Of a stretch of DNA of 26,022 bases, positions 2 through 3,119 are shown one piece after another. Every line of letters begins with the position of its first letter. Position 1 is the first letter of the stretch. Source of the DNA: Clostridia bacterium (lineage in GTDB: Bacteria; Bacillota; Clostridia; Christensenellales; Borkfalkiaceae); the NCBI GenBank assembly GCA_029052615.1, contig JAIDIR010000024.1, forward strand, positions 1 through 26,022, in the 5' to 3' direction. The notes beneath the pieces are model-generated. The model searched no databases. It saw nothing but the letters and a program-made list of their open reading frames with translations, and was not told the origin of the DNA. Made by a program: the position numbers and the translations under genes.

Positions 2-49
2 AAGGGCGATTCTAAAGTAACCGTACCCAAAACCTATCTAAAAGAATAA
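2..49 (+). CDS. Possible 3' end of a convergent gene running in from outside the window (..KGDSKVTVPKTYLKE*)
   Basis: Frame open from nt 2 to TAA at 47-49, which runs straight into the palindromic terminator. Too short to identify. Confidence 0.25.
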   Translation, partial: KGDSKVTVPKTYLKE

Positions 50-92
50 AATAACCGCCCCGTGCGATATCGCACGGGGCGGTTATTTTATT
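45..92. terminator. Bidirectional intrinsic terminator (perfect 48-bp palindrome)
   Basis: AATAAAATAACCGCCCCGTGCGAT|ATCGCACGGGGCGGTTATTTTATT has a GC-rich core and A/T tracts on both sides. It lies 17 nt past the stop of the 110..2287 gene. Confidence 0.8.
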
Positions 93-109: not shown

Positions 110-2287
110 TTAGCCGAGCGCCTTTTCCACTTCCTGTTTAAGTACTTCTTCCGAGCAAGGTCCCTGATTTACGAAAGTAATCTTTCCTTCCGCATTCACT
201 ATAACCGTCATGGGATAGGCGTACTTGCCGCCGAGCATCGCGTAGGTGTTAAGCTCCTGCGTGTCCTGCGCAAAGGTCAGCTTATAGCTGTTCCACGCCC
301 TGCCGTTCTTGTCCTTCGCGGTATCAAGGAAGTACTGAACGCCCGTCGAAGGCACCGCCGAATAACTGTGTATAACGAACATATCTATTGCGCCGTCGTA
401 ATCTTCGTAAACCTTTTCAAACTCGGGCAATTCCGCCTTGCAAGGGTCGCAGTCGGTGTACCAGTAATTGAGTACCGTGACCTTTCCTCGGCTTTCCAGC
501 AGCGAAACTTTTGCGCCCTCTTCGGCATTGTAACGGTCAAGCACGAAAAGCGGGCACGTATCACCCTCCTTAAACACTTTAGCCGACATAGCCGTAGTTA
601 CGCCGTTAATAACCTCATCCATGCTAAGAACGCGGTCTTTCTGCAATGTTACTCCGCCGTCGGCAGAAATAATAGCCGTTATGGGTTTAGGTACGGATAT
701 ATCGCCGCCAACCAAGCCGTAGGCGTTTGTTTCCCTATCATCCTGCGCAAATATTACGTTGTATTCGTTCCAGCCGTGTTCGTCAATAAACGCCTGCACG
801 TCGCGGTCGTCCTTGTATATGGAATGAATTGCAACGACGTCGGCAAAATCCAACTGCTTATACAGTGTCGCCAGCTCGTTTAACTCTTCCATAGCCGCAA
901 CGCTCTCTTCAAGGTCTGTTCGCCAGAAATACAACACCTTGACGCGGCGGTTATCATCGCTTACCGTAGAGTAATCTTTTTCGCCTTCGCTTGCCGCCGA
1001 TTTATAAGTGGTAACCGTTAAGTCGAGCATCGCCGCCGACTTCCTTTCGGGCAAATTATAGCAAATCAATGCGGATATAAGCACCGCAATTGCAACTACC
1101 CAGGCGACGAACTCGACGACGAAGCGCGGGCGCTTGAACGCCGCTTTTACCGCTTGCAGCCTGCCGCCCTTCTTTGCGCCTTCCGTAGCGGGCTTAACCG
1201 CCTCCTCCTGCGCCTCTACGCCCACGGCGGCTTCCTGCCCGTCCGTTGCCGTAAACTCGCTCTCAGCCTCTATATTTGCGTTCTGCGCGCTTTCCGTAAC
1301 GTTCCCCGATACTTCTTCGGGGTCGGCGCTTGCAACCGCTACGCTTGCGTTCGATTTGGCAAGCTCCAAAAGCGCAATCTTTTCACCCGACTCAACTACG
1401 GGCTGGTCTATAGGCGTCGTGTTCTTTAAGAATATCTGACTGCCCTTCCAGGTAATCGCCTGCACGGGGCAGACCGAAATACACTCGCCGCACTGAATAC
1501 ATTCGTGGTCGCCAACGTGCTTAACGTCCATTTTACAGCCCTGCACGCACAAGCCGCAGTCGATACACTTGTCCTTGTCGAGCTTGACGCCCAGCAGCGA
1601 AATTTTGTTGAACAGCGAATATATTGCGCCGAGCGGGCAGATGAAGCGGCAGAAGAAGCGGTAAATGAATACGCTTGCAACCACAATGACTACCGCCAGA
1701 CAGAACTTCCAGGTGAACAGATAGCCCAGCATACCGTAGAAATCCGAATTCTGAATGTTGGCAAGCAGGCTGACCGCACCTTCCAGAGTGCCCGCGGGGC
1801 AAACGTATTTACAGAACGAGGGTATGCCCGCGTAAATGAGCGGCACGGCAATGACGATTACCAGCAGTACGTACTTGAAATACGATAGCACGCGCGTAAA
1901 GCGGTTCTTCCTGAGCTTGGGCGTGCGGATTTTATACAGCAGCTCCTGAATAAGCCCGAAGGGGCACAAAAAGCCGCATATCAGCCTGCCCAGCAGTAAG
2001 CCGAACATCAGCAGTATGCCCAGTATGTAGGCGGGTGCGGACTTGCCGCTCTGCGCCAGCGAATCCTGCAGCGCACCCAGGGGGCACGCGCCCACCGCGC
2101 CGGGACAGGAATAGCAATTCAAGCCGGGCACGCACATCTTTTTGGTGTCGCCGGTGTAAATCTTGCCGGTGAAAAAGCCCTTTAAATTTGCGTTGGTAAG
2201 CAACGCGGCGTATAGTTGAATAAGTCTGCGCTTGGTGGGTTTGTGGGCAACGAACCAAGCCTTTACTTTACCGAAAAACTTTTTCAT
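110..2287 (-). CDS. Membrane 4Fe-4S polyferredoxin (NapH/RdxA-like) fused to two C-terminal TlpA/redoxin-type thioredoxin domains, 725 aa
   Basis: CxxxCP-type motifs near TM helices (NCYSCP..ACPLG, ICGFLCPFG, FCKYVCPAG, FCRFICPLG). Two ferredoxin motifs (CIDCGLCVQGC, CIQCGECISVCP). Acidic linker and an extra TM helix, then two thioredoxin-fold repeats; the second has WYTDCDPC and the cis-Pro motif YPMTVIV. Confidence 0.85.
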   Translation of the reverse strand: MKKFFGKVKAWFVAHKPTKRRLIQLYAALLTNANLKGFFTGKIYTGDTKKMCVPGLNCYSCPGAVGACPLGALQDSLAQSGKSAPAYILGILLMFGLLLGRLICGFLCPFGLIQELLYKIRTPKLRKNRFTRVLSYFKYVLLVIVIAVPLIYAGIPSFCKYVCPAGTLEGAVSLLANIQNSDFYGMLGYLFTWKFCLAVVIVVASVFIYRFFCRFICPLGAIYSLFNKISLLGVKLDKDKCIDCGLCVQGCKMDVKHVGDHECIQCGECISVCPVQAITWKGSQIFLKNTTPIDQPVVESGEKIALLELAKSNASVAVASADPEEVSGNVTESAQNANIEAESEFTATDGQEAAVGVEAQEEAVKPATEGAKKGGRLQAVKAAFKRPRFVVEFVAWVVAIAVLISALICYNLPERKSAAMLDLTVTTYKSAASEGEKDYSTVSDDNRRVKVLYFWRTDLEESVAAMEELNELATLYKQLDFADVVAIHSIYKDDRDVQAFIDEHGWNEYNVIFAQDDRETNAYGLVGGDISVPKPITAIISADGGVTLQKDRVLSMDEVINGVTTAMSAKVFKEGDTCPLFVLDRYNAEEGAKVSLLESRGKVTVLNYWYTDCDPCKAELPEFEKVYEDYDGAIDMFVIHSYSAVPSTGVQYFLDTAKDKNGRAWNSYKLTFAQDTQELNTYAMLGGKYAYPMTVIVNAEGKITFVNQGPCSEEVLKQEVEKALG

Positions 2288-2288
2288 A

Positions 2289-3119
2289 TCAGCCCAGCCC
2301 TATGCACTCCGTGCAGATATTTATCGCCTTTATGAATACCGACCGCGCACTGCCGTTGAGTGCGCCCCATATTATAAAGGCAACGGCTAAAACCGCGATT
2401 GCAATTCTCACGCCCAATATCACCCACTTGTTTTCGAGCGTGGTTTTTATTTTATCGATTATTGCGGGCAAGCCCGTAAGTTGCTTTTGTTCGGGCTTAC
2501 GCCCCTTGGTCAGCTTCTGTGCGGCAGGCAGCACGCGCTTTACCGCAAACTTCTGATATATCCCCGCGCCGCAGATTACTATCAGCCCCGCGAATATGCA
2601 GGGGAATATGTGCTTAGCCATGTTCAGCATTTCTTTGGTCACGTTTTCGTTGGGGAAGTTGGAGGGTATGCACAGATACACCAAGCCGTACACGGCGGCT
2701 ATACCAAACAGCGCCCACGCCGCGCATTGAAGCGCGAACACCACCTTCTTTGCCGAAGTAACCGCGTTATATTCCGCCTCCAATCCCTCGGGCGCGGAGG
2801 AGGGCATACGCTTATTCAGCCTTGCAAGCTGCAAATCGGGGCAGATTTTGCGCGGCTTGTCGGTGACGGGGAACACCTCCCACAGCACGAAGCCGACGAC
2901 TATACCCGCAATCCACAGCCAGAAAAACAGGTCTATTTTAGAGAGCGCCGCCACTACCCTTTCGCGGGAAAACGGGTGGTCGCCAGTAAAGCCCGGCGCG
3001 GTACCCGTAAGGTAGACGTCAAGCACCTGCCATATGAACAGTGCGCCCACCACTACCGTAAAGACGCCGAATATAATTCCGTAGCTCAAGCGCACGGATT
3101 TACAAGTCTTTTCCTTCAT
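2289..3119 (-). CDS. Polytopic membrane protein with a C-terminal CxxC motif (resembles the small 'CD1871A-type' CxxC membrane proteins), ~276 aa
   Basis: About 5 hydrophobic segments; ends ..SVFIKAINICTECIGLG*. I moved the start from 3173 to ATG 3119 because it has an SD (GAGGA, 3129-3125) and the upstream TTG is the promoter -35 box. The stop lies 1 nt before the ATG of the polyferredoxin gene. Confidence 0.75.
   Translation of the reverse strand: MKEKTCKSVRLSYGIIFGVFTVVVGALFIWQVLDVYLTGTAPGFTGDHPFSRERVVAALSKIDLFFWLWIAGIVVGFVLWEVFPVTDKPRKICPDLQLARLNKRMPSSAPEGLEAEYNAVTSAKKVVFALQCAAWALFGIAAVYGLVYLCIPSNFPNENVTKEMLNMAKHIFPCIFAGLIVICGAGIYQKFAVKRVLPAAQKLTKGRKPEQKQLTGLPAIIDKIKTTLENKWVILGVRIAIAVLAVAFIIWGALNGSARSVFIKAINICTECIGLG

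What the first reader, a model, noticed from the sequence alone, without database searches (positions are those of the whole stretch)
110..2287. Polyferredoxin-thioredoxin fusion: candidate Fe-S-powered trans-membrane disulfide reductase (DsbD/CcdA-independent route)
Seen: a NapH/RdxA-like membrane domain with Cys motifs and two ferredoxin motifs, an acidic linker, a basic patch (KKGGRLQAVKAAFKRPR), one more TM helix, then two thioredoxin folds. By the positive-inside rule the thioredoxins face outward, like membrane-anchored TlpA/ResA, while the ferredoxin domain stays inside. Known: outward disulfide reduction normally uses DsbD/CcdA fed by cytoplasmic thioredoxin. Inference: one polypeptide links low-potential Fe-S electrons to an external CxxC. 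A fusion like this is Rosetta-stone evidence that the separately encoded versions in other clostridia act together.
Basis: partly seen in the sequence, partly recalled or inferred. Interest (0 to 1): 0.72.

Follow-up and report, generated by a model that had tools for sequence, protein, structure and literature searches.

The report
Iron-sulfur membrane protein fused to surface thioredoxin
This gene fuses a NapH-like iron-sulfur membrane protein, facing the cell interior, to a ResA-like thioredoxin domain on the cell surface; with a small two-cysteine partner it probably exports reducing power without the usual CcdA/DsbD carrier, but this is untested.

Summary
Window 110-2287 (minus strand) is one 725-aa ORF. 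In order it has:
- a NapH-like membrane domain (three TM+CX3CP units, an N-terminal 4-Cys loop and a 2x[4Fe-4S] ferredoxin motif);
- an acidic disordered linker, a basic patch and a fifth TM helix;
- two TlpA/ResA-type thioredoxin folds.

Only the second fold is catalytic (CDPC, Glu+3, cis-Pro). The first has no CxxC.

The upstream gene, whose stop lies 1 nt before the ATG, ends in a CD1871A-family CxxC tail that is predicted to face outward.

The trio is conserved. Of 121 homologous polyferredoxins examined, 111 have a thioredoxin fused (79) or encoded directly beside them (32). The separate thioredoxins carry signal anchors or lipoboxes.

This genome shows no CcdA/DsbD, TatC or MenA, but it has pyruvate:ferredoxin oxidoreductase.

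One caveat: across the order, CcdA still occurs in 7 of 31 genomes that carry the thioredoxin-linked module, so the two are not cleanly exclusive.

I found no paper describing this architecture. This scan has already reported the same module on more than a dozen other genomes.

Verdict: a real, widespread, uncharacterised variant of NapH-like transmembrane electron modules. The mechanism is inferred, not shown.

The parts
110..2287 (-). Whole gene: 725-aa NapH-like polyferredoxin fused to two TlpA-like thioredoxin folds
   Evidence: ORF. Pfam domains. More than 100 full-length homologues at 45-75% identity.
2168..2287 (-). aa 1-40: basic cytoplasmic N-terminus (about 7 K+R) and a weakly hydrophobic first membrane helix
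   Evidence: Mean K+R of 7.0 in aa 1-21 over 51 sequences. AF2 helices at 2-14, 19-31 and 35-40, pLDDT above 90.
2081..2134 (-). aa 52-69: Cys loop C-x5-C-x2-C-x6-C-P, predicted on the outer face
   Evidence: C68 is invariant and C52, C58 and C61 are at least 90% conserved in 92 sequences; all four are invariant in 51. Topology by the positive-inside rule. This motif defined 600 or more species matches.
1961..2038 (-). aa 84-109: TM1 plus CX3CP motif 1 (CGFLCP), cytoplasmic end
   Evidence: Fer4_5 match at 89-127. The following loop, aa 108-132, has a mean K+R of 6.8.
1796..1891 (-). aa 133-164: TM2 plus CX3CP motif 2 (CKYVCP), predicted at the outer end
   Evidence: Hydropathy and loop charge. 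C163 is invariant and C159 at least 90% conserved. I do not recall this motif in E. coli NapH, which to my recollection has two CX3CP motifs; that comparison was not tested here.
1634..1723 (-). aa 189-218: TM3 plus CX3CP motif 3 (CRFICP), cytoplasmic end
   Evidence: C213 and C217 invariant.
1436..1588 (-). aa 234-284: 2x[4Fe-4S] ferredoxin motif (CIDCGLCVQGC and CIQCGECISVCP), cytoplasmic
   Evidence: Pfam Fer4/Fer4_7. It is the only part of the N-domain model that matches solved structures, all of them dicluster ferredoxins. No TatC in the genome.
1175..1420 (-). aa 290-371: acidic, disordered linker
   Evidence: 17 D+E against 3 K+R. pLDDT below 50. Length and sequence vary among homologues.
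1058..1174 (-). aa 372-410: basic patch (7 K/R in 17 residues) followed by TM5, which carries the chain outward
   Evidence: AF2 helix at 387-410.
578..1042 (-). aa 416-570: first thioredoxin fold, degenerate (no CxxC); absent from the roughly 570-aa homologues
   Evidence: Pfam Thioredoxin_8, 32.4 bits. Same strand/helix order as domain 2 in the AF2 model. No PDB sequence match. Two length classes among homologues.
128..571 (-). aa 573-720: catalytic ResA/TlpA-like thioredoxin domain (W-x3-C613-D-P-C616-x2-E619-L-P; cis-Pro P692)
   Evidence: Pfam Redoxin/AhpC-TSA. PDB sequence match to ResA 1st9, E 6e-9, with motif-for-motif alignment. Foldseek match to ResA 1su9, TM 0.83, rmsd 2.4 Å. Signature conserved in 78 fused, 36 split and 12 large forms.
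2289..3119 (-). Partner gene: 5-TM membrane protein ending in a CD1871A-family tail (…NICTECIGLG); its stop is 1 nt before the fusion gene's ATG
   Evidence: NCBIfam NF040920, 42.7 bits (cut-off 32) at the last 37 residues. Junction sequence. In 63 homologues only the two tail Cys are conserved, and loop charges place the tail outside. It lies directly upstream of the polyferredoxin in 79 of 80 loci and in 21 of 21 relatives.
44..84 (-). Intrinsic-terminator-like hairpin (14-bp G+C-rich stem, 4-nt loop, T-run) ending the two-gene operon
   Evidence: Read directly from the sequence.

Best explanation
The two genes at 110-3119 encode a three-part machine that carries reducing equivalents from the cytoplasm to the cell surface.

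Shown:
- The polyferredoxin has a cytoplasmic 2x[4Fe-4S] domain.
- Two CX3CP motifs sit at the inner ends of TM1 and TM3.
- A 4-Cys loop and a third CX3CP motif are predicted on the outer face.
- A fifth TM helix tethers a ResA-like CxPC thioredoxin domain outside.
- The partner protein contributes one more outward-facing CxxC.

Inferred:
- Reduced ferredoxin (the genome has pyruvate:ferredoxin oxidoreductase and no menaquinone prenyltransferase) loads the cytoplasmic clusters.
- Electrons cross the thin membrane domain through the conserved cysteines. These could act as thiol/disulfide pairs or as ligands of further clusters.
- The electrons reduce C613/C616 of the tethered thioredoxin.
- That domain then reduces disulfides or sulfenic acids in surface proteins. 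Likely clients include a large lipoprotein with a CGPC redoxin domain that lies next to the module in relatives.

Overall, the module does the job that CcdA/DsbD does in other bacteria, including some relatives of this one.
For: 1. All 18 membrane/ferredoxin Cys and the CxxC are invariant in 51 homologues. Most remain invariant or at least 90% conserved in 92 more diverse ones.
2. Linkage. In 80 species loci, 79 have the CD1871A-tailed gene directly upstream, 74 have the thioredoxin fused and 5 have it split into an overlapping downstream gene. In 39 further modules from an order-wide sample, 31 have a thioredoxin gene fused or directly adjacent. On a tree of 121 polyferredoxin domains, fused forms and the two split arrangements cluster but interleave; branches with at least 95% local support force at least 3 changes of the fused state.
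3. Topology. No TatC was found. An Rrf2 regulator domain is fused straight after the ferredoxin domain in P0264. Loop charges fit the model. Split thioredoxins carry anchors (34 of 37) or lipoboxes (21 of 37).
4. The thioredoxin is the reductive ResA type: alignment to ResA includes the Glu three residues after the second Cys and the cis-Pro, and the fold matches with TM 0.83.
5. No DsbD_TM was found in this 94%-complete genome, and it was found in 1 of 24 genomes of the genus. In relatives that do have CcdA, it is fused or adjacent to the same kind of anchored thioredoxin in 9 of 10. The thioredoxin therefore has two alternative membrane neighbours.
6. No menA; PFOR present.
7. NapH-like modules are already proposed to pass electrons across the membrane to extracytosolic FMN domains (PMC8238504). 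The CX3CP motifs have been suggested to form disulfides (PMC5928378).
8. From general knowledge: ferredoxin-type clusters (about -400 mV) lie below TlpA/ResA-type disulfides (about -200 to -340 mV), so outward reduction is downhill.
Against: - There are no biochemical data for any member.
- I could not obtain model coordinates, so no Cys-to-Cys or cluster-to-Cys distance was measured.
- How one-electron clusters would reduce a two-electron disulfide here is unknown. No FTR-like CPC/CHC motif and no Hdr-like CCG motif is present.
- If the outer cysteines bind Fe-S clusters, their assembly outside a cell without Tat is hard to explain.
- No conserved cytoplasmic donor gene accompanies the module.
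- CcdA co-occurs with the thioredoxin-linked module in 7 of 31 genomes of the order, against 38 of 112 without the module, so simple replacement is not shown.
- Eight genomes have the polyferredoxin plus CD1871A pair without a neighbouring thioredoxin, so the core pair may have a wider or different acceptor.
- The genome is a 350-contig assembly, so absences are provisional.
Confidence: 0.6

Rival explanations
1. The module runs in the opposite direction. The surface thioredoxin oxidises exported cysteines, as DsbA does, and the Fe-S membrane protein acts as a DsbB/VKOR substitute that disposes of the electrons inside a quinone-free anaerobe.
For: No menA was found, so a quinone-dependent DsbB/VKOR could not work here. 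The same architecture would serve either direction. Large Cys-containing surface lipoproteins lie nearby in relatives.
Against: The active site is of the CxPC/CGPC type with the ResA Glu and cis-Pro-Thr, in all 126 module-associated domains checked. The closest sequence and fold matches are reductive ResA, CcmG/DsbE, StoA, TlpA and Etrx. From general knowledge, pushing electrons from a disulfide couple into ferredoxin-type clusters is uphill.
Confidence: 0.1
2. It is mainly a redox sensor. The surface thioredoxin reports the external thiol/oxidant state through the membrane domain to the cytoplasmic Fe-S domain, which controls an Rrf2-type regulator.
For: Rrf2 genes lie beside the module in four relatives (L012, L106, L111, L130). 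One homologue has Rrf2 fused after the ferredoxin domain (P0264). NosR and RdhC were first thought to be regulators (PMC5928378).
Against: No Rrf2 gene lies beside the module in this window or in any of the 80 closest loci. An Rrf2 gene also sits next to a CcdA-thioredoxin fusion in G037, which suggests ordinary regulation of a redox operon rather than signalling through it.
Confidence: 0.08
3. Like NapH, the membrane domain is a quinol dehydrogenase. Electrons come from a membrane quinol pool rather than from cytoplasmic Fe-S clusters or ferredoxin, and go to the surface thioredoxin.
For: NapH of Wolinella and E. coli is held to oxidise menaquinol (cited in PMC5928378; PMC8238504). The protein matches the NapH models best among named families.
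Against: No menA-type prenyltransferase was found in the 94%-complete genome. The scores to the NapH models are far below their cut-offs (69.8 against 213; 57.3 against 234). From general knowledge, menaquinol (about -75 mV) is too oxidising to reduce a ResA-type disulfide.
Confidence: 0.06
4. It is a surface metal reductase or chaperone. The polyferredoxin reduces Cu(II) or another metal, as CcoG does, and the thioredoxin fold handles the metal or keeps a metal-site cysteine pair reduced, as TlpA does for Sco and CoxB.
For: From my own knowledge, CcoG/RdxA/FixG is a polyferredoxin and was reported as a cupric reductase. TlpA, a structural neighbour, acts in copper-site assembly. His640 is conserved in the fused clade (72 of 78).
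Against: His640 is not conserved in the split or large forms. No copper enzyme, Sco or metal transporter is a conserved neighbour. From general knowledge, the organism is a fermentative gut anaerobe in which no cytochrome oxidase would be expected; this was not searched.
Confidence: 0.05

Closest known systems
NosR and RdhC/PceC (with NapH/MauN): NapH-like Fer4_5 membrane modules
   Same: Both have a membrane core of TM helices, each followed by a CX3CP motif. NapH and NosR also have the C-terminal cytoplasmic 2x[4Fe-4S] motif. The core is joined in one chain or operon to an extracytoplasmic redox domain and is proposed to pass electrons across the membrane (PMC8238504; PMC5928378). Pfam PF12801 is matched above its cut-off.
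   Different: Here the outside acceptor is a CxxC thioredoxin, not a flavinylated FMN-binding domain. This protein also has an extra outer CX3CP motif, an N-terminal C-x5-C-x2-C-x6-C loop and an obligatory CD1871A CxxC partner. Scores to the NapH and NosR models are far below their cut-offs. There is no nitrate, N2O or organohalide reductase context.
DsbD / CcdA / ScsB with their clients ResA, StoA, CcmG, TlpA and Etrx1/2
   Same: The proposed job is the same: supplying electrons to a membrane-tethered, ResA-like thioredoxin outside the cell. Relatives of this organism carry CcdA fused (426 and 444 aa) or adjacent to the same kind of thioredoxin, mirroring the fused and split forms seen here.
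   Different: There is no DsbD_TM domain in the protein or the genome. The membrane part is an Fe-S protein rather than a two-cysteine transporter fed by cytoplasmic thioredoxin.
Ferredoxin:thioredoxin reductase (FTR) and HdrB/HdrD-type heterodisulfide reductases
   Same: These are the known precedents for Fe-S clusters reducing a disulfide. The inferred central step here needs that chemistry.
   Different: FTR and Hdr are soluble or act on the cytoplasmic side. Their CPC/CHC or CCG motifs are absent here (read from the sequence). No homology was detected.
CcoG (RdxA/FixG) polyferredoxin
   Same: It is a membrane polyferredoxin of the same broad COG and acts on a substrate at the outer face (my own knowledge).
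   Different: CcoG has no thioredoxin domain and no CD1871A partner, and serves cbb3 oxidase assembly. No CcoG/FixG-type family appeared among the Pfam or NCBIfam hits.

Membership tests
NapH/MauN family (TIGR02163) and NapH equivalog (NF007013) | Score at or above the curated cut-off (213.05 and 234 bits) | tested here: not met
   69.8 and 57.3 bits.
NapH-like superfamily (Pfam PF12801 Fer4_5) | TM helix followed by CX3CP, scoring above the gathering cut-off, with a C-terminal dicluster ferredoxin motif | tested here: met
   71.4 bits against a cut-off of 22, in three stretches. Fer4 at aa 234-284. Cys residues invariant.
NapH (functional) | Association with NapG/NapA and a menaquinol pool | tested here: inconclusive
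   No nap genes in the window and no menA in the genome. NapA and NapG were not searched genome-wide.
NosR / RdhC | Extracytoplasmic FMN-binding domain with the flavinylated Thr motif | tested here: not met
   No FMN_bind match in Pfam. NosR model: 37.5 bits against a cut-off of 1000.
ResA (NF002854), StoA (NF041202), TlpA (NF047696) | Score at or above the curated cut-off | tested here: not met
   65.1 against 170, 43.2 against 210, and 38.2 against 230 bits.
TlpA/ResA-like extracytoplasmic thiol-disulfide oxidoreductases (Pfam Redoxin / AhpC-TSA clan) | Thioredoxin fold with W-x3-C-x-x-C, Glu three residues after the second Cys, and a cis-Pro loop; membrane-tethered on the outside | tested here: met
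   Pfam 66-67 bits. Alignment to ResA. Foldseek TM 0.83-0.86. Conserved in 126 module-linked domains. Topology.
Peroxiredoxins (AhpC/TSA proper) | Peroxidatic Cys in a PxxxT/SxxC motif | tested here: not met
   The active site reads WYTDCDPC and aligns to the ResA CEPC motif. No PxxxTxxC is present in the sequence.
DsbD/CcdA (Pfam PF02683 DsbD_TM) | DsbD_TM domain | tested here: not met
   Absent from the protein and not found in the genome. The control search detected it in 10 of 14 reference genomes.
CD1871A family (NF040920), for the partner gene at 2289-3119 | TM helix plus C-terminal CxxC-IGxG tail, above the cut-off | tested here: met
   42.7 bits against a cut-off of 32 at the last 37 residues. 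Here the motif caps a 5-TM protein instead of the roughly 50-aa form seen in G031, G032 and G036.

The most novel reading that the evidence does not exclude
The polyferredoxin, the CD1871A CxxC peptide and the tethered thioredoxin together form a third, Fe-S-based class of transmembrane reductant conduit for extracytoplasmic thiol-disulfide oxidoreductases. It would be unrelated to DsbD/CcdA and would draw on the ferredoxin pool rather than NADPH/thioredoxin. It would also reveal what the long-unexplained CX3CP motifs of NapH, NosR and RdhC do.
Probability: 0.5. Interest if true: 0.8.

Novelty: new variant of a known kind. Interest (0 to 1): 0.64.

Why it matters
DsbD, CcdA and ScsB are the only established routes that bring reducing power to thioredoxin-like proteins outside the bacterial membrane. 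Many gut anaerobes lack them: in the order sampled here, 99 of 151 genomes had no DsbD_TM match.

A conserved Fe-S-based module tied to surface thioredoxins in hundreds of species would fill that gap. It would link surface thiol repair directly to fermentative ferredoxin. It would also give a testable function to the CX3CP cysteines of the NapH/NosR/RdhC family, which remain unexplained (PMC5928378).

The fused form in this window is a convenient single-gene-plus-partner construct for such tests.

Tried and rejected
1. The full-length AF2 model built from 51 close homologues gave pLDDT below 50 for the membrane domain. It was replaced by a 300-aa model built from 92 diverse sequences (pLDDT 93). 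Coordinates are not exposed to the script box, so no distances could be measured.
2. Foldseek and VIA-align searches of the N-domain model against the PDB matched only the ferredoxin sub-domain. No solved structure informs the membrane core.
3. I expected a clean CcdA anticorrelation. It holds in the genus (1 of 24) and in a first sample. It dissolves in the order-wide sample once modules are sorted by thioredoxin linkage: 7 of 31, against 38 of 112. I therefore do not use it as strong evidence.
4. Literature searches for CD1871A, for PF12801 with thioredoxin, and for NapH with TlpA, CcdA or polyferredoxin found no description of this architecture. The C. difficile 'CD1871' hits concern an ABC permease and a conjugative transposon and are irrelevant.
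5. Clustering the neighbours of 116 loci found no conserved cytoplasmic donor gene.
6. A dual Sec/Tat export of the ferredoxin domain (PMC5449189 came up) was set aside. No TatC was found, there is no twin-arginine motif before TM5, and one homologue has a cytoplasmic Rrf2 domain following the ferredoxin domain.
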